Positions 6,630 through 61,686 of a stretch of DNA of 64,000 bases are shown here, piece by piece. Source of the stretch: Parcubacteria group bacterium GW2011_GWA1_56_13 (lineage in GTDB: Bacteria; Patescibacteriota; Minisyncoccia; Phycocordibacterales; Phycocordibacteraceae); assembly GCA_001004905.1 (NCBI GenBank), contig LCRY01000003.1:24830-88829 (forward strand), in the 5' to 3' direction. Position 1 is the stretch's first letter. Each line of letters begins with the position of its first letter. Below the pieces are notes generated by a model, which ran no database searches, was not told the origin of the DNA, and saw nothing but the letters and a program-made list of their open reading frames with translations. Both the position numbers and the translations under genes were made by a program.

Positions 6630-8273
<1,644 letters not shown>

Positions 8274-38676: not shown

Positions 38677-39246
38677 ATGGCTCCCCAGCAGGCAAATATC
38701 GAATATTTCTTCCGCCTCCTGTACGAATGGATATACGGAACGCACGGGGCAAATTATGAGGAGTTGCGCGTACTCGCCTCGCACATTTGGCTTTGGATCA
38801 TCGCTGTCGGCTACCTGCTCTCGGTCATTGCGCTCGTTTTCATCGTCTACACGACCGTGCGGCTGTTCGAATTACGCAAGCGAGAGGACGCATACTATGG
38901 CACGCTCGTTTCTCCGCCGGAGAGCGGGGGAGAAAACCCGCGATGGAAGCACATCGAGTCGCTCGCCAACAGCCAGAGCGCAAGCGAGTGGCGCGAGGCG
39001 ATCATCGAGGCCGACATCATGCTCGACGACATCCTGGCGCGGCAGGGATATGTGGGTGCCGGCGTAGGGGAGAAGCTGAAGGCCGTCGAGCCCTCCGACA
39101 TGGGCACGCTTCAGGATGCCTGGGAGGCGCACAAGGTGCGCAACCAGATCGCGCACGAGGGTTCGGCCTTCAAGCTTTCCGACTCGCTCACCCACCGCAC
39201 TATTGCGCGCTACGCGGCCGTGTTCCGCGAACTGAAGGCAATCTAG
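38677..39246 (+). CDS. Hypothetical membrane protein.
   Basis: One or two TM helices (IWLWIIAVGYLLSVIALVFIVY), then a soluble helical domain. Confidence 0.4.
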   Translation: MAPQQANIEYFFRLLYEWIYGTHGANYEELRVLASHIWLWIIAVGYLLSVIALVFIVYTTVRLFELRKREDAYYGTLVSPPESGGENPRWKHIESLANSQSASEWREAIIEADIMLDDILARQGYVGAGVGEKLKAVEPSDMGTLQDAWEAHKVRNQIAHEGSAFKLSDSLTHRTIARYAAVFRELKAI

Positions 39247-39358
39247 CCAATTGCACATTAGGAGAGTAAGATATACGTAGCGGGGTAGAGGAGAGCCGTG
39301 TCCTACGGGCGGGAGGGCAAGTGTGCAAACCAACTGCGAAAAGAGTAAACTAGTACAC

Positions 39359-39429
39359 AGCGGGGTAGAGGAGAGGTACCTCGGGAGGCTCATAACCTCC
39401 AGACGCCGGTTCGATTCCGGCCCCCGCAA
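39359..39429 (+). tRNA. tRNA with anticodon CAT (Met, or Ile2 if lysidinylated).
   Basis: Hand-folded: D stem GAGG/CCTC; anticodon stem GGAGG/CCTCC with loop CTCATAA; T arm GCCGG-TTCGATT-CCGGC; acceptor AGCGGGG/CCCCGCA (an A1.A72 mismatch). No encoded CCA. Confidence 0.7.
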
Positions 39430-39442
39430 CACGATTGGAAAT

Positions 39443-39470
39443 GGCGCCGTGAGGCGCCTTTTCCTTTTCT
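39443..39470 (+). terminator. Intrinsic terminator directly after the tRNA.
   Basis: ggcgcc-gtga-ggcgcc hairpin followed by ttttccttttc. Confidence 0.6.
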
Positions 39471-39473
39471 TGT

Positions 39474-39705
39474 TGCGGGGGAGCGAAGCGCCTGCGCGCT
39501 TCGCGTCCGGAATCGAATGCCGGAACATGTTTCAGTCGGCAGACTGAAACGGTGAGGCTGTGCCCAGACCTCGGCGAGCGACGGCGAGCCGAGAGTCGAG
39601 GGAGATAAGTCGTAATCGACGGTCCGGCCCCCGCAACACGGTTGTGACGCCAGGAACCAGTACCGACAGGGGTCAAACCCAGTACAGTACCGGCCCCCTC
39701 GGTCA
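39474..39705 (+). ncRNA. Unassigned structured-RNA candidate between two terminators.
   Basis: No plausible ORF: the only long frame is antisense and carries tRNA-antisense GIEPAS motifs. It starts at a 5' GCGGGGG. At 39626-39632 there is a CCCCCGC complementary to it, inside an 18-nt 3' segment (tccggcccccgcaacacg) that duplicates the tRNA 3' end. T-arm-like hairpins are present. It ends just before the terminator at 39709-39743. Confidence 0.25.
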
Positions 39706-39708
39706 CCA

Positions 39709-39743
39709 GAAAAAGCGCCTACATGCTAGAGGCGCTTTTTCTG
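39709..39743. terminator. Bidirectional intrinsic terminator.
   Basis: aaaaagcgcctacatgctagaggcgctttttctg. Confidence 0.65.
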
Positions 39744-39893
39744 TTATGCAGCAAACGCAACATATTTCCAGTTCGATTCCGACTCTCGTATTCGCCGCAC
39801 CTTCGTGTCGCAATCACAGAAATCCGGTTCAATAGTTCCGTCCCCCTCTGGGGGGCGGGAATGCTCGACTCGCGCTATACTGCGGACAAATAC

Positions 39894-40436
39894 ATGACCC
39901 TCCACTTCATCACAGGTAACAAAAACAAGCTCGCAGAAATGCGGACGATGCTTGGGAGTGTCGAGCAACTTGATATTGAACTGCCGGAGATTCAGGAGAT
40001 CGATGCGCACGAAGTTATCAAAGCGAAACTCAAAGCAGCTACTCAGCACCATACGGGCGCACTTATTGTCGAAGACACTTCGCTTTCCCTCGACGCCCTT
40101 AACGGTCTCCCAGGACCACTTGTTAAGTGGTTTTTAAAAACGATTGGGAATGACGGTCTTTTTAAGATTGCGGAAGCTTTTGGTAACTATGGTGCTGAAG
40201 CGAAGACTATTATTGGCTATACCTCTGGCGACGGAGCAATCCAATTCTTTGAGGGGTCAGTCAGGGGTACGATAGTCGCTCCTCGGGGTGATACTGTCTT
40301 TGGCTGGGACCCGATCTTTCGGCCTGAAGGAAAAGATAAAACCTACGCTGAACTATTTGATGCAGATGAGGCCGAGAAGAATTCAATAAGCATGCGCAGA
40401 CTCGCCGCCGAGAAATTAAAGGCACATTTATCATGA
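39894..40436 (+). CDS. rdgB: Non-canonical purine NTP pyrophosphatase (RdgB/Ham1 family).
   Basis: LHFITGNKNKLAEM...EDTSLSLDALNGLPG...FGWDPIF; start refined to ATG 39894. Confidence 0.85.
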   Translation: MTLHFITGNKNKLAEMRTMLGSVEQLDIELPEIQEIDAHEVIKAKLKAATQHHTGALIVEDTSLSLDALNGLPGPLVKWFLKTIGNDGLFKIAEAFGNYGAEAKTIIGYTSGDGAIQFFEGSVRGTIVAPRGDTVFGWDPIFRPEGKDKTYAELFDADEAEKNSISMRRLAAEKLKAHLS

Positions 40437-60796: not shown

Positions 60797-61483
60797 ATGC
60801 CCATACGCCGTGAACTAGATCAGGATTTTTTTAAGAAATGGTCGCCGCAAATGGCGTACGTGTTAGGATTTTTTGCGGCTGACGACTCCATGCTAAAGAA
60901 TCGTCGGGGTAGCCATTACATTGAATTCACGGTTACCGATAAAAGTGTCTTAGAACAGATACGGGAAGCAATCGGTTCGACGAATCGTATAGCAGAGCGG
61001 AAGCGGATTAGTAAACAAAAAGCAGTGTATCGCTTACAAATTGGCAGCAAAGAATGGTTTAAGGACTTGTCGTGTCTCGGTTTTATGCAAAACAAAAGTA
61101 AAAGACTTGCGTTGCCTGTTATACCCGCAAAATATTTTGGAGATTTTGTACGCGGATATTTCGACGGAGATGGGTGTGTGTATTTCAATCGCCTGAAATA
61201 TGCGGACCGCAAAAATCCTCGCTGGATACTAATGACACTTTTCACTAGCGGATGCCAATTATTTCTCAATTCACTTTGGACCGAACTCAAGATTCGAGGC
61301 ATCCACGGCGGTTCATTAAAGCGCAAAACACGTGGCTTTGAGCTTTGTTTCAGCCATAAAGACAGCGTTGCGCTCTACCGCGTCATGTATCATACTGGAA
61401 AAGCGCCTGAATTATGGCTGCCTCGTAAGCGGAGAAAGATCGAGGAAGCGATTCGGCAGTTAAATCTTGCGGTCGTGGTGTAG
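60797..61483 (+). CDS. LAGLIDADG homing endonuclease (double-motif, single-chain type).
   Basis: Two LAGLIDADG-type motifs: LGFFAADDS and RGYFDGDGCVY. 228 aa, AT-richer than the host. The last 15 nt overlap tRNA-Asp. Confidence 0.85.
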   Translation: MPIRRELDQDFFKKWSPQMAYVLGFFAADDSMLKNRRGSHYIEFTVTDKSVLEQIREAIGSTNRIAERKRISKQKAVYRLQIGSKEWFKDLSCLGFMQNKSKRLALPVIPAKYFGDFVRGYFDGDGCVYFNRLKYADRKNPRWILMTLFTSGCQLFLNSLWTELKIRGIHGGSLKRKTRGFELCFSHKDSVALYRVMYHTGKAPELWLPRKRRKIEEAIRQLNLAVVV

Positions 61484-61543
61484 CCTGGTTAACACGTCTC
61501 CCTGTCACGGAGAAGATCGTGGGTTCAAATCCCATCGACCGCG
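61469..61543 (+). tRNA. tRNA-Asp (anticodon GTC).
   Basis: Acceptor GCGGTCG/CGACCGC; D stem GTGT/ACAC; anticodon stem TCTCC/GGAGA with loop CTGTCAC; T arm GTGGG-TTCAAAT-CCCAT; discriminator G. No CCA. Confidence 0.75.
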
Positions 61544-61686
61544 CAATCAGCGAAATCCGGGGAACGGCCTATTTTGTGTTATGAGCGGGTTTCGACTCCT
61601 GACCAAGCCCGTCCCTCGCGCAAATAACCGTAGATTGGTTCAAAAATGGCTGTCCATAGGGCAGTCATTTTTGTTATAGTTGACGT

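What the first reader, a model, noticed from the sequence alone, without database searches (positions are those of the whole stretch)
39270..39743. tRNA(CAT) followed by a terminator-bounded ~230-nt non-coding region carrying duplicated tRNA-end motifs: an unassigned structured RNA
After tRNA-Met (39359-39429) there is a strong terminator at 39443-39470. A ~230-nt region with no credible ORF follows and ends at a second terminator at 39709-39743. The region begins GCGGGGGAGCGAAGCGCC and contains T-arm-like hairpins (tccggaatcgaatgccgga; gtcgtaatcgac). It also contains an exact 18-nt repeat of the tRNA 3' end, tccggcccccgcaacacg, at 39622-39639, whose CCCCCGC can pair with the 5' GCGGGGG. There are short similarities to RNase P conserved regions (..cugaaacggug.., ..acaguaccggcc..) and to a tmRNA tRNA-like domain, but neither identification can be confirmed by eye. 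The only long reading frame here is antisense and carries tRNA-antisense GIEPAS peptides, arguing for RNA rather than protein. Either this is a small non-coding RNA gene (RNase P RNA, tmRNA, 6S or novel), or it is a ~200-bp integration scar with attL/attR-like cores.
Basis: partly seen in the sequence, partly recalled or inferred. Interest (0 to 1): 0.6.

Follow-up and report, generated by a model that had tools for sequence, protein, structure and literature searches.

The report
Structured swappable cassette behind initiator tRNA
The 230-base "spacer" behind a methionine tRNA gene of a Kaiserbacteria genome holds a 207-base non-coding insert from an unannotated family of tightly folded cassettes, whose ends copy the tRNA's own 3' end and which near-identical strains carry or lack precisely at those copies.

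Summary
The described features are real. The region is composite. Window 39434-39640 (207 nt) is a terminator hairpin plus a ~170-nt element that I call TL. It lies between tRNA(CAU) and that tRNA's usual conserved trailer, "B" (39641-39743).

A contig 99.97-100% identical over 6.4 kb lacks exactly these 207 nt, with the break inside a 22-nt direct repeat of the tRNA 3' end.

TL belongs to a family of about 25 copies in Patescibacteria contigs. None matches any Rfam family, and ARAGORN finds no tmRNA.

- **Folding:** covariation is strong (46 of 53 pairs compensatory), and G.U pairs favour the tRNA strand.
- **Arms:** the left arm is the inverted complement, and the right arm a direct copy, of the neighbouring tRNA's T-arm/acceptor 3' strand. 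They track seven different T-arm sequences, including tRNA-Asp.
- **Arrangement:** copies occur in tandem arrays and combine freely with different terminator modules.
- **Conservation:** TL is 90.6% identical to a copy in a species whose flanking gene is 74% identical, with three compensatory changes.

Best reading: a modular non-coding cassette exchanged by recombination at copies of the tRNA 3' end. The enzyme, and whether the folded molecule is RNA or single-stranded DNA, are unresolved. It is not RNase P RNA, tmRNA or 6S RNA, and it is not an inert scar.

The parts
39279..39358 (+). Upstream unit 'U': an exact copy of tRNA positions 1-17, a covarying hairpin, and a promoter-like TGCAAA-N16-TAAACT that ends 7 nt before the real tRNA
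   Evidence: 17-nt exact repeat. The 80-nt unit is present in 1-3 tandem copies in 13 of 80 relatives, with compensatory hairpin variants. The promoter reading is my inference from the sequence.
39359..39430 (+). tRNA(CAU), initiator-like: A1.A72 mismatch, A11:U24, G30:C40 and G31:C39
   Evidence: ARAGORN and Rfam RF00005, 58.9 bits. The initiator features are read from the alignment and judged from established knowledge of bacterial initiator tRNAs.
39416..39437 (+). Direct repeat copy 1 (the tRNA's T-stem 3' strand, acceptor 3' strand and trailer)
   Evidence: family D2. It is the overlap of the two BLAST pieces against the cassette-free strain L124.
39431..39470 (+). Terminator module of the cassette (hairpin 39443-39458 plus T tract)
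   Evidence: The module is only 59.6% identical between the window and L129, while the adjacent TL is 90.6% identical. Two module types combine freely with TL subtypes.
39471..39481 (+). TL left arm, part 1: complement of the tRNA acceptor 3' strand plus trailer (P1, 5' strand)
   Evidence: 11-nt perfect inverted repeat with 39628-39638 (I4). It also complements the tRNA's own 3' end (I1).
39483..39504 (+). P2 hairpin (GCGAAGCGC-CUGC-GCGCUUCGC)
   Evidence: Fold. All 9 pairs show compensatory changes across the family, with 95.9% of cells paired (helix 3).
39507..39517 (+). TL left arm, part 2: exact complement of the tRNA T-loop and T-stem 3' strand (P3, 5' strand)
   Evidence: I3 (11 nt, 100%). 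The same exact complementarity (9-15 nt) holds in relatives for seven different T-arm sequences.
39519..39558 (+). P4 arm: GGA/GA internal loop and apical hairpin 39528-39551
   Evidence: helices 5-7. The change from A39525:U39553 to G:C in L129 is compensatory.
39563..39602 (+). P5 arm with apical GAGCGACGGCGA
   Evidence: helices 8-9, including a conserved G.U. The change from G39574:C39589 to C:G in L129 is compensatory.
39609..39620 (+). Small hairpin GUCG-UAAU-CGAC
   Evidence: L129 has GCG-UAAU-CGC, a paired loss of one base on each side.
39623..39644 (+). TL right arm, which is direct repeat copy 2 (P3 and P1, 3' strands)
39634..39743 (+). Block 'B': the conserved tRNA trailer (invariant 32-nt core CAACACGGTTGTGACGCCAGGAACCAGTACCG, second block GTACWGTACCG) ending in the bidirectional terminator 39707-39743. 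It is not part of the cassette.
   Evidence: It directly follows the tRNA in about 20 relatives and in strain L124. It shows no covariation. The terminator is the inverted repeat I2.

Best explanation
Window 39434-39640 is one module of a modular, recombination-prone set of non-coding cassettes that sit at the 3' ends of tRNA genes in Patescibacteria. It is a terminator hairpin plus a ~170-nt structured element, TL.

**Shown**
- The module lies between the initiator-type tRNA(CAU) and the tRNA's usual trailer B.
- It is bounded by a 22-nt direct repeat of the tRNA 3' end and is precisely absent from a near-identical strain.
- One strand, the tRNA strand, folds into a closing helix plus hairpins P2, P4 and P5, all with compensatory evolution. 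The closing helix is made of the left arm (complement of the tRNA's acceptor 3' strand and T-arm) and the right arm (a copy of them).
- The arms always match the tRNA next door, whichever tRNA that is.
- Modules occur in tandem and in different combinations. Strain differences break exactly at copies of ...CCCCCGCAACA.

**Inferred**
- Cassettes are exchanged, lost and probably inserted by recombination at these copies. An enzyme encoded elsewhere would do this.
- The most economical mechanism is one in which the folded strand pairs the left arm with a copy of the tRNA 3' end. This rebuilds a duplex imitation of the target site, as in integron attC sites or the CTX-phage attP hairpin.
- In the chromosome the cassette gives the tRNA its terminator.
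- Any TL RNA would arise only by read-through.
For: 1. **Precise presence/absence.** L124 is 99.97-100% identical to the window over 6.4 kb but lacks 207 nt. The two alignment pieces overlap by the 22-nt repeat.
2. **A second breakpoint at the same spot.** L142 is 99.8% identical to L135 up to ...CCCCCGCAACA. After that it carries unrelated DNA instead of B.
3. **A real family.** The covariance model finds about 25 solid copies, all co-oriented with a tRNA. 87.5% of cells are paired against 62.8% in shuffles. 46 of 53 pairs have compensatory changes. The covariation score is 0.50 against 0.15 in shuffles and 0.06-0.11 for slid controls.
4. **Strand choice.** There are 62 G.U cells against 22 A.C cells. 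One pair is G.U in 19 copies. All 16 seed copies fold better on the tRNA strand.
5. **Arms track the tRNA.** Direct repeats of 10-36 nt and exact inverted repeats of 9-15 nt match the neighbouring tRNA for seven T-arm variants, including tRNA-Asp. A copy behind tRNA-Leu carries a ~40-nt direct repeat of that tRNA's 3' end but no clear inverted arm. The same interior subtype sits behind tRNA-fMet and behind tRNA-Asp in one contig.
6. **Tandem arrays.** L105 carries three unlike copies in a row.
7. **Modules recombine.** Two terminator types combine with two TL subtypes in all four combinations: window, L129, L068 and L040.
8. **A very stable hairpin.** The tRNA 3' end, terminator and left arm together fold into one hairpin (DNA parameters: -54 kcal/mol, z = -12).
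9. **No recombinase nearby.** None lies within 3 kb on either side: glycosyltransferases, GatC, GatA, Ham1, HIT, a beta-lactamase-family protein and TrmB. This fits action by an enzyme encoded elsewhere.
Against: - No recombinase has been identified or linked to the cassettes.
- A 22-nt repeat 207 nt apart can also delete by replication slippage. Alleles can also spread by ordinary homologous recombination, so no dedicated mechanism is proven.
- TL of the same subtype sits at the same site in a second species. It is 90.6% identical, against 74% for the flanking gene, and carries three compensatory changes. This shows long vertical persistence under selection for structure in place. It means the cassette-free allele is probably a loss, and it suits a host RNA gene equally well.
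- Co-orientation with the tRNA and the G.U pairs are what an RNA would show.
- No free, circular or dispersed copies were seen. There are none in viral, phage or plasmid collections.
- The metagenome copies were retrieved with a pattern containing GAGCGAYGGCGA and CCCCCGCAAC. Conservation of those two motifs is therefore partly due to how the copies were found.
Confidence: 0.5

Rival explanations
1. TL is a chromosomal, vertically inherited tRNA-like small RNA gene. It is co-transcribed with the tRNA by read-through. Its closing helix imitates the acceptor/T-arm minihelix, for example to recruit RNase P, RNase Z or other tRNA-binding proteins, or to act as a decoy. Presence/absence arises only from accidental deletion between the repeats, and the arms stay matched to the tRNA by gene conversion or quasi-palindrome correction.
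For: - Strong covariation with G.U pairs on the tRNA strand.
- All copies are co-oriented with a tRNA.
- 90.6% identity and three compensatory changes between two species at the same locus.
- The copy behind tRNA-Leu in L084 has no terminator between the tRNA and the element.
- The closing helix reproduces the acceptor 3' and T-stem 3' strands.
Against: - In most copies a strong hairpin plus U tract lies directly upstream, with no room for a promoter.
- A protein-recognition role does not require the arms to equal the neighbouring tRNA's lineage-specific T-stem and T-loop. Yet they do for seven variants, including left-arm bases that are unpaired inside TL.
- The closing helix pairs through the discriminator and trailer, unlike substrates of tRNA-processing enzymes.
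- Tandem arrays of unlike copies and shuffled terminator/TL combinations need recombination anyway.
- The element is dispensable in a near-identical strain.
Confidence: 0.32
2. An inert integration scar: the attL/attR remnant of a degraded genomic island or prophage that once sat in the tRNA gene.
For: - Direct repeat of the tRNA 3' end.
- Other decayed tRNA-3' fragments nearby, at 39679-39698, 39768-39787 and 61585-61625.
- Strains differ downstream of the tRNA.
Against: - Conserved size (143-207 nt), fold and sequence in about 25 copies, with compensatory substitutions.
- 90.6% identity where the flanking intergenic DNA is 60-65% identical.
- No coding remnants.
Confidence: 0.04
3. A divergent copy of a known housekeeping RNA (RNase P RNA, tmRNA, 6S or SRP RNA) or a known ribozyme or riboswitch.
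Against: - Rfam 15 at gathering thresholds and at E up to 10 returns only the tRNA. tmRNA_permuted scores 12 bits against a gathering score of 47.
- ARAGORN finds no tmRNA.
- There is no tag reading frame or G3:U70.
- The element is absent from a near-identical strain, which is impossible for an essential RNA.
Confidence: 0.01
4. An intron-like insertion in the T-loop. The tRNA 5' half pairs with the second 3' copy, and the 207 nt are removed at the RNA level.
For: The minimum-energy fold of tRNA plus TL does pair the tRNA 5' half with the right arm, and the first 3' copy with the left arm.
Against: - The first copy already gives an intact tRNA with its own terminator.
- The right arm lacks the 5' part of the T-loop.
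- No ribozyme signature was found.
- Tandem arrays cannot be explained this way.
Confidence: 0.03

Closest known systems
Integrative elements that target the T-loop or 3' end of tRNA genes (tyrosine-integrase islands and prophages; sublocation classes described by Williams 2002, cited from my own knowledge)
   Same: - A direct repeat of the tRNA 3' portion flanks the insert.
- The gene is restored by an element-borne copy followed by an element-borne terminator.
- A precise empty site exists in a sister strain.
- Copies accrete in tandem.
   Different: - Only 143-207 nt, with no integrase or any gene.
- The interior is a conserved folded structure.
- An extra inverted copy of the site sits next to the tRNA.
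- The same interior serves different tRNAs, with re-tailored arms.
Integron gene cassettes and their attC sites
   Same: - Promoterless modules stacked in one orientation behind a fixed site.
- Modules are separated by imperfect palindromes whose structure rather than sequence is conserved.
- Folding is strand-specific, with extrahelical features (here the P2 hairpin).
- The enzyme would be encoded elsewhere.
   Different: - The RYYYAAC/GTTRRRY cores are not matched; only GCAAC/GTTGC is present.
- No IntI gene or attI lies nearby.
- The palindrome imitates a tRNA gene end.
- Repeats are 10-36 nt rather than a 7-bp core.
- The cargo is a structured non-coding segment.
CTX-phage type integration (single-stranded DNA hairpin attP recombined by host XerCD)
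   Same: The predicted product architecture is identical: target copy, then hairpin loop, then inverted copy, then element, then target copy. The site is created by folding one strand, and the element has no recombinase of its own.
   Different: - The target is a tRNA gene end, not dif.
- There is no phage genome.
- No single-stranded or circular form has been observed. This is an analogy, not a tested membership.
tRNA-like structures (tmRNA tRNA-like domain, mascRNA, viral TLS)
   Same: The acceptor and T-stem strands of a tRNA are reproduced, and they close a larger structured RNA-like fold.
   Different: - No T-loop, no free NCCA end (the helix runs through the discriminator and trailer), and no G3:U70 or tag frame.
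- No Rfam or ARAGORN match.
Bacterial MITEs and REP/BIME-type intergenic palindromic repeats
   Same: Short, non-coding and highly structured, with terminal inverted repeats (11 nt perfect). They lie next to terminators, and presence varies between strains.
   Different: - Not dispersed: found only at tRNA 3' ends.
- The termini are copies of the local target rather than of a transposase-binding consensus.
- The flanking repeats are long.

Membership tests
tRNA (RF00005), for 39359-39429 | Cloverleaf covariance-model score above the gathering score, and an anticodon call | tested here: met
   58.9 bits against a gathering score of 29. ARAGORN calls tRNA-Met CAT.
RNase P RNA, 6S RNA, SRP RNA | Covariance-model match to the Rfam family | tested here: not met
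   No hit at gathering thresholds or at E up to 10 over 39150-39900.
tmRNA | tRNA-like domain with T-loop and G3:U70, plus a tag reading frame; ARAGORN or Rfam detection | tested here: not met
   ARAGORN finds none. tmRNA_permuted scores 12 bits against 47. The acceptor is G:C throughout and there is no T-loop in the right arm.
Known self-cleaving ribozymes and riboswitches (Rfam) | Covariance-model match | tested here: not met
   Only weak chance-level matches to hairpin-rich families.
tRNA-targeting integrative element (attL/attR) | Direct repeat of the tRNA 3' portion at both ends of the insert | tested here: met
   18 nt exact and 22 nt at 95%. 10-36 nt in relatives.
tRNA-targeting integrative element (attL/attR) | An empty site consisting of a single repeat copy in a related genome | tested here: met
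   L124. The tRNA abuts B directly in about 20 relatives.
tRNA-targeting integrative element (attL/attR) | An integrase or recombinase gene carried by the element or adjacent to it | tested here: not met
   The insert is 207 nt with no credible ORF. Neighbours within 3 kb are housekeeping families. The rest of the genome was not examined.
Integron cassette / attC | An imperfect palindrome that folds on one strand, with structure conserved more than sequence | tested here: inconclusive
   The hairpin of tRNA 3' end, terminator and left arm folds at -54 kcal/mol, z = -12. Strand bias is 62 G.U against 22 A.C. RNA and DNA cannot be told apart with these tools.
Integron cassette / attC | R''/R' core motifs RYYYAAC ... 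GTTRRRY, and an IntI gene with attI | tested here: not met
   The sequence has CCGCAAC ... GTTGCGG, which violates the R/Y pattern. No integrase lies within 3 kb.
MITE | Terminal inverted repeats | tested here: met
   11-nt perfect inverted repeat, 39471-81 / 39628-38.
MITE | A short target-site duplication, and many dispersed copies sharing the same termini | tested here: not met
   The flanking repeat is 18-22 nt and is itself the terminus. There is one copy in the 64-kb window. All copies are at tRNA 3' ends, with termini that differ according to the tRNA.
Intrinsic terminator (39443-39470 and 39707-39743) | A GC-rich hairpin followed by a T run | tested here: met
   The scan finds the first site. 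The second is a 14-bp perfect stem with a 9-nt loop and TTTTT; its loop is too long for the scanner's rule.
CTX-phage-like folded single-strand att site | A single-stranded circular intermediate recombined by a host tyrosine recombinase | not testable with these tools
   Only the product architecture is compatible.

The most novel reading that the evidence does not exclude
Patescibacteria carry an integron-like or CTX-like cassette system anchored on tRNA genes. Short non-coding modules (TL and other types with the same arm logic) would be captured, stacked, excised and shuffled at the tRNA 3' end. A recombinase encoded elsewhere in the genome would recognise a site rebuilt by folding one strand, so that the cassette's inverted arm pairs with a copy of the tRNA end. 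The conserved interior would be the part that makes the folded intermediate competent, or it would be a cargo RNA delivered behind strong tRNA promoters.
Probability: 0.25. Interest if true: 0.85.

Novelty: new variant of a known kind. Interest (0 to 1): 0.62.

Why it matters
If the family is real, as the covariation and the strain polymorphism indicate, it adds a new class of structured non-coding element to the poorly charted Candidate Phyla Radiation.

It shows that the flanks of tRNA genes there are modular: promoter-bearing units upstream, and terminator- and structure-bearing cassettes downstream.

It also gives a concrete, testable case of a nucleic-acid fold whose ends co-evolve with a neighbouring tRNA. 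Two outcomes are possible, and either would be new biology:
- a gene-free mobile cassette that imitates its own target site;
- a tRNA-mimicking small RNA tied to initiator tRNA and other tRNAs.

There is a practical point for annotation. Such cassettes cause assembly breaks and spurious ORF calls next to tRNA genes. Here they are the 118-aa antisense frame and a 237-aa over-extended Ham1 call.

Tried and rejected
- **Known RNA families.** Rfam at gathering and permissive thresholds, and ARAGORN for tmRNA, found nothing beyond the tRNA. The same holds for the unknown RNA upstream of B in L073.
- **Viral, phage and plasmid origin.** The B core and the TL pattern were scanned in viral contigs. 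The single hit, L081, lies inside a long protein-coding reading frame of a high-GC viral contig and is a chance match. BLAST of the 207 nt against phage and plasmid collections gave no match.
- **Integrase in larger inserts.** I looked for one in the segments between the tRNA and second copies of B in relatives. By eye only ordinary cargo genes are present.
- **HTH plus LAGLIDADG-like ORFs.** These sit near some tRNA-fMet loci and were considered as the mobilising enzyme. They are absent from the window and also occur at loci without TL, so no link was established.
- **Minus-strand RNA.** Rejected: all copies fold better on the plus strand, and G.U outnumbers A.C by 62 to 22.
- **Structure for block B.** No covariation; the sequence is simply invariant.
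- **'The window's TL is closest to tRNA-Asp-linked copies.'** Only marginally true (64% against 63%), so it is not used as evidence. The firmer case is L117, where one subtype serves both tRNA-fMet and tRNA-Asp.
- **Literature.** Searches for a described tRNA-linked motif in CPR, or for integrons in Patescibacteria, returned nothing relevant.
- **Conserved mini-ORF.** AUG followed by 2-6 codons at hairpin P4 occurs in many copies but not all (by eye, from the sequences). I judged it a by-product of the conserved GAUG and loop sequences.
Full report
**1. The observation**

- tRNA(CAU) lies at 39359-39429/30 (ARAGORN and Rfam 58.9 bits).
- A 6-bp all-GC hairpin at 39443-39458 is followed by a T tract.
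- A second hairpin has a 14-nt perfect inverted repeat, 39707-39720 / 39730-39743.
- The 18-nt exact repeat of the tRNA 3' end is at 39416-39433 and 39623-39640.
- The GCGGGGG/CCCCCGC pairing is part of an 11-nt perfect inverted repeat, 39471-81 / 39628-38.
- No ORF is credible. The 118-aa antisense frame carries GIEPAS.
- 39471-39640 folds at -95.5 kcal/mol, z = -6.75.

One is a 17-nt exact repeat of the tRNA 5' end 80 nt upstream. The other is an exact inverted copy of the T-loop and T-stem at 39507-39517.

The by-eye resemblances to RNase P RNA and tmRNA are not supported. Rfam gives only the tRNA, even at E up to 10, and ARAGORN sees no tmRNA.

**2. Organism and context**

The window is a Candidatus Kaiserbacteria (Patescibacteria) genome.

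- The sequence is identical to GCA_001005015.1 contig LCSC01000002.1 over the 6.6 kb fetched.
- The upstream 189-aa protein carries that name in public records.
- Neighbouring genes are GatC, GatA and a 189-aa membrane protein upstream, and Ham1/ITPase, HIT, a beta-lactamase-family protein and TrmB downstream.
- The tRNA has an A1.A72 mismatch, A11:U24, G30:C40 and G31:C39 (read from the alignment). From established knowledge of bacterial initiator tRNAs, I take it to be the initiator tRNA.

**3. The 230-nt region is composite**

I fetched 80 syntenic loci through the 189-aa protein.

- In about 20 of them the tRNA 3' end runs straight into the homologue of window 39641-39743, which I call block B.
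- B has a 32-nt core, CAACACGGTTGTGACGCCAGGAACCAGTACCG. It is invariant across species whose flanking protein is only about 60% identical.
- B also has a second conserved block, GTACWGTACCG, then a terminator. It shows no covariation.
- So the window carries a ~207-nt insertion (39434-39640) between the tRNA and its usual trailer, flanked by the repeat of the tRNA 3' end.

**4. The insert is a member of a conserved structured family**

*Finding the copies*
- Partial homologues lie at the same place in L068, L040, L074, L014 and L011.
- A pattern scan of metagenome contigs recovered about 17 more. The other hits of that scan, and the single viral hit, fall inside long protein-coding reading frames and are chance matches.
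- A covariance model built from 16 copies found 25 solid copies in the fetched loci, all on the strand of an adjacent tRNA. It found further copies in a sister lineage.

*Architecture in the window*
- Left arm, part 1: 39471-81, the complement of the acceptor 3' strand and trailer.
- P2 hairpin: 39483-39504.
- Left arm, part 2: 39507-17, the complement of the T-loop and T-stem 3' strand.
- P4: 39519-58.
- P5: 39563-39602.
- A small hairpin: 39609-20.
- Right arm: 39623-40, a direct copy of the tRNA's T-stem 3' strand, acceptor 3' strand and trailer.

*Covariation*
- 87.5% of cells are paired, against 62.8% in shuffles.
- 46 of 53 pairs have compensatory changes.
- The covariation score is 0.50, against 0.15 in shuffles (0 of 500 reach it) and 0.06-0.11 for slid controls.
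- The alignment is model-fitted and so leans towards the structure. But P2, P4 and P5 were already visibly compensatory in raw sequences.

*Which strand folds*
- G.U cells outnumber A.C cells by 62 to 22.
- One pair is G.U in 19 copies.
- All 16 seed copies fold better on the tRNA strand.
- The folding strand is therefore the tRNA strand.

**5. The arms follow the neighbouring tRNA**

- Across loci the right arm is an exact 10-36-nt repeat of the adjacent tRNA's 3' end.
- The left arm contains an exact 9-15-nt complement of that tRNA's T-loop and T-stem 3' strand. This holds for seven different T-arm sequences: TTCGATT/CCGG, TGCAAGT/CCCG, TGCAATT/CCCG, TTCGAAT/CCCGC, TTCGAAT/CCCAC, TTCAAAT/CCTG, and tRNA-Asp's TTCGAGT/CCCG.
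- Copies also follow tRNA-Asp (L110, L117) and tRNA-Leu (L084). The tRNA-Asp copies have both arms taken from that tRNA. The tRNA-Leu copy has a ~40-nt direct repeat of the tRNA 3' end but no clear inverted arm.
- In L117 the same interior subtype sits behind both tRNA-fMet and tRNA-Asp.
- The left arm keeps the complement of the whole T-loop even where the right arm has lost most of it. Pairing inside TL therefore cannot be what maintains it.
- The tRNA 3' half, the terminator and the left arm together form one very stable hairpin (DNA parameters: -54 kcal/mol, z = -12).
- In the RNA fold of tRNA plus TL, the first 3' copy pairs with the left arm, and the tRNA 5' half pairs with the second copy.

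**6. Evidence that the unit is gained, lost and shuffled**

- **(a) Precise absence in a near-identical strain.** Contig L124 (ENA ERZ27254728) has one mismatch in 3761 nt upstream and none in 2624 nt downstream. It lacks exactly 207 nt. The two alignment pieces overlap by the 22-nt repeat, and the tRNA abuts B.
- **(b) A second breakpoint in another species.** L142 is 99.8% identical to L135 up to ...CCCCCGCAACA and then carries unrelated DNA instead of B.
- **(c) Tandem arrays.** L105 has three unlike TL copies in tandem, each preceded by a terminator hairpin, plus a fourth copy 1.8 kb away. L110, L117 and L084 have two or three copies.
- **(d) Independent modules.** Two terminator-module types occur with two TL subtypes in all four combinations: window, L129, L068 and L040. 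The type-2 terminator also occurs without TL.
- **(e) Consistent unit size.** Unit sizes are 143-207 nt. As circles they would be 69-79% base-paired, with z from -5 to -12 against mononucleotide shuffles.

**7. Evidence for selection in place**

- The closest relatives found (L129-L134; flanking protein 74% identical) carry the same TL subtype at the same site.
- TL is 90.6% identical between the two species. This compares with 74% for the neighbouring gene's DNA, 65% for the upstream intergenic region and 60% for the terminator module.
- The differences include three compensatory events:
  - A39525:U39553 becomes G:C.
  - G39574:C39589 becomes C:G.
  - One base is lost on each side of the small hairpin.
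- TL is therefore probably ancestral in this lineage, and the cassette-free allele is probably a precise loss. The structure is under purifying selection.

**8. Interpretation**

The data exclude a known RNA and an inert scar.

They establish a family of discrete, structured, non-coding modules bounded by copies of the tRNA 3' end. These copies are where strains and species differ.

I commit to this reading: a modular cassette exchanged by recombination at those copies, by an enzyme encoded elsewhere.

The architecture is: target copy, hairpin loop, inverted copy, interior, target copy. This is what integration of a folded single strand produces in the CTX-phage/XerCD and integron attC systems (from my own knowledge of those systems). 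It would explain four things:
- the arms imitate the local tRNA;
- folding is strand-specific;
- arrays build up;
- no recombinase lies nearby.

These mechanistic steps are inferred, not shown.

The main rival is a host tRNA-like small RNA made by read-through, with repeat-mediated loss and conversion-driven matching of the arms. The in-place conservation and the G.U pairs keep it alive. Three things count against it:
- the terminator lies directly upstream;
- the closing helix runs through the discriminator;
- the arms are needlessly identical to the lineage-specific T-arm.

I give 0.5 to the cassette reading, 0.32 to the RNA-gene reading, and about 0.25 to the specific folded-strand recombination mechanism.

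**9. Limits**

- No transcript data are available, and no recombinase was identified.
- Only 64 kb of this genome was seen.
- The metagenome copies were retrieved with a pattern containing GAGCGAYGGCGA and CCCCCGCAAC. Conservation of these motifs is therefore inflated. Copies found by the model alone have GAGCGGCGGCGA, GAGCGAAGCGA, TGCGACGGCA and GAACTGGTGA.
- Whether the fold acts as RNA or as single-stranded DNA cannot be decided with these tools.

Noticed in passing
window 39279-39358: An 80-nt unit upstream of the tRNA. It starts with an exact copy of tRNA positions 1-17, then a hairpin that covaries among relatives, then a promoter-like TGCAAA-N16-TAAACT ending 7 nt before the real tRNA. 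Relatives carry 1-3 tandem copies (L009 has three). It looks like the 5'-side counterpart of the 3' cassettes: a promoter-bearing module bounded by repeats of the tRNA end.
   Followed up: partly
window 39634-39743; L001-L080: Block B. Its 32-nt core, CAACACGGTTGTGACGCCAGGAACCAGTACCG, has no mismatch in about 30 loci of species with ~60% identical flanking proteins. It is more conserved than the tRNA's own T-stem. Several copies occur per locus, and some carry a ~33-nt hairpin insertion after GCCAG (L129, L145). There is no covariation and no Rfam match. Its function is unknown.
   Followed up: partly
L073 ~7800-8120; also L058, L050, L071, L057, L060: A conserved non-coding sequence of about 330 nt. 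It begins with CAGTACAGTACCG and ends in block B plus a terminator. It matches no Rfam family even at permissive thresholds.
   Followed up: partly
L050 4665-4918, L040 4641-4980, L073 5950-6152, L017 4772-5020, and about 20 other relatives: The orthologous tRNA(CAU) is interrupted in the anticodon loop by a 245-380-nt group I intron in many relatives (Rfam Intron_gpI, 56-84 bits). The window's copy has no intron.
   Followed up: partly
L110 1528-2217 (-) and 3032-3703 (+); homologues in L016, L042, L013, L061, L092, L108, L102: ORFs of about 225 aa with an N-terminal resolvase-type HTH and a LAGLIDADG-like GLALYWGEG motif lie next to tRNA-fMet loci, both with and without TL. They are probably free-standing homing endonucleases. 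The window has none.
   Followed up: partly
window 61585-61625: A degenerate tRNA-Asp 3' fragment (...GCCCGTCCCTCGCGCAAAT) lies 40-80 nt downstream of tRNA-Asp 61469-61544. It is preceded by a T-arm-like GCGGGTTTCGACTCC. This is a second, decayed example of a duplicated tRNA end in the same window.
   Followed up: no
window 39768-39787 and 39679-39698: Two further T-arm-like fragments, 75-80% similar to the tRNA T-arm and acceptor. The first lies after B's terminator and is conserved in relatives with the same class of B.
   Followed up: no
L117 (-) ~3470-3350: A different short cassette lies directly after the TL. It has no P4/P5 homology but the same arm logic: GGTGTGGGGGCGGGACTTGG ... CCAGTCCCCCGCAACACG. 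The arm design is therefore shared by more than one interior type. L055 6860-6954, L026, L065 and L034 7560-7640 carry short palindromic versions in front of second copies of B.
   Followed up: no
L135 versus L142, position 3429: Two contigs 99.8% identical upstream diverge completely, starting exactly after the tRNA's ...CCCCCGCAACA. One continues with B and the other with a plain terminator and different DNA. The L142 contig ends 320 nt later, so assembly effects cannot be excluded.
   Followed up: partly
window 39723-40436: The 237-aa ORF is an over-extended call. Gene calls in the sister contigs L124 and L126 give a 191-aa Ham1-like protein, which corresponds to a start near window 39861. 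The upstream part of the long ORF overlaps B's terminator.
   Followed up: no
L060 5406-5524; L034 4989-5052: A LOOT RNA (77.5 bits) and a fluoride riboswitch in front of an inorganic-pyrophosphatase-like ORF lie in relatives' loci downstream of the tRNA.
   Followed up: no
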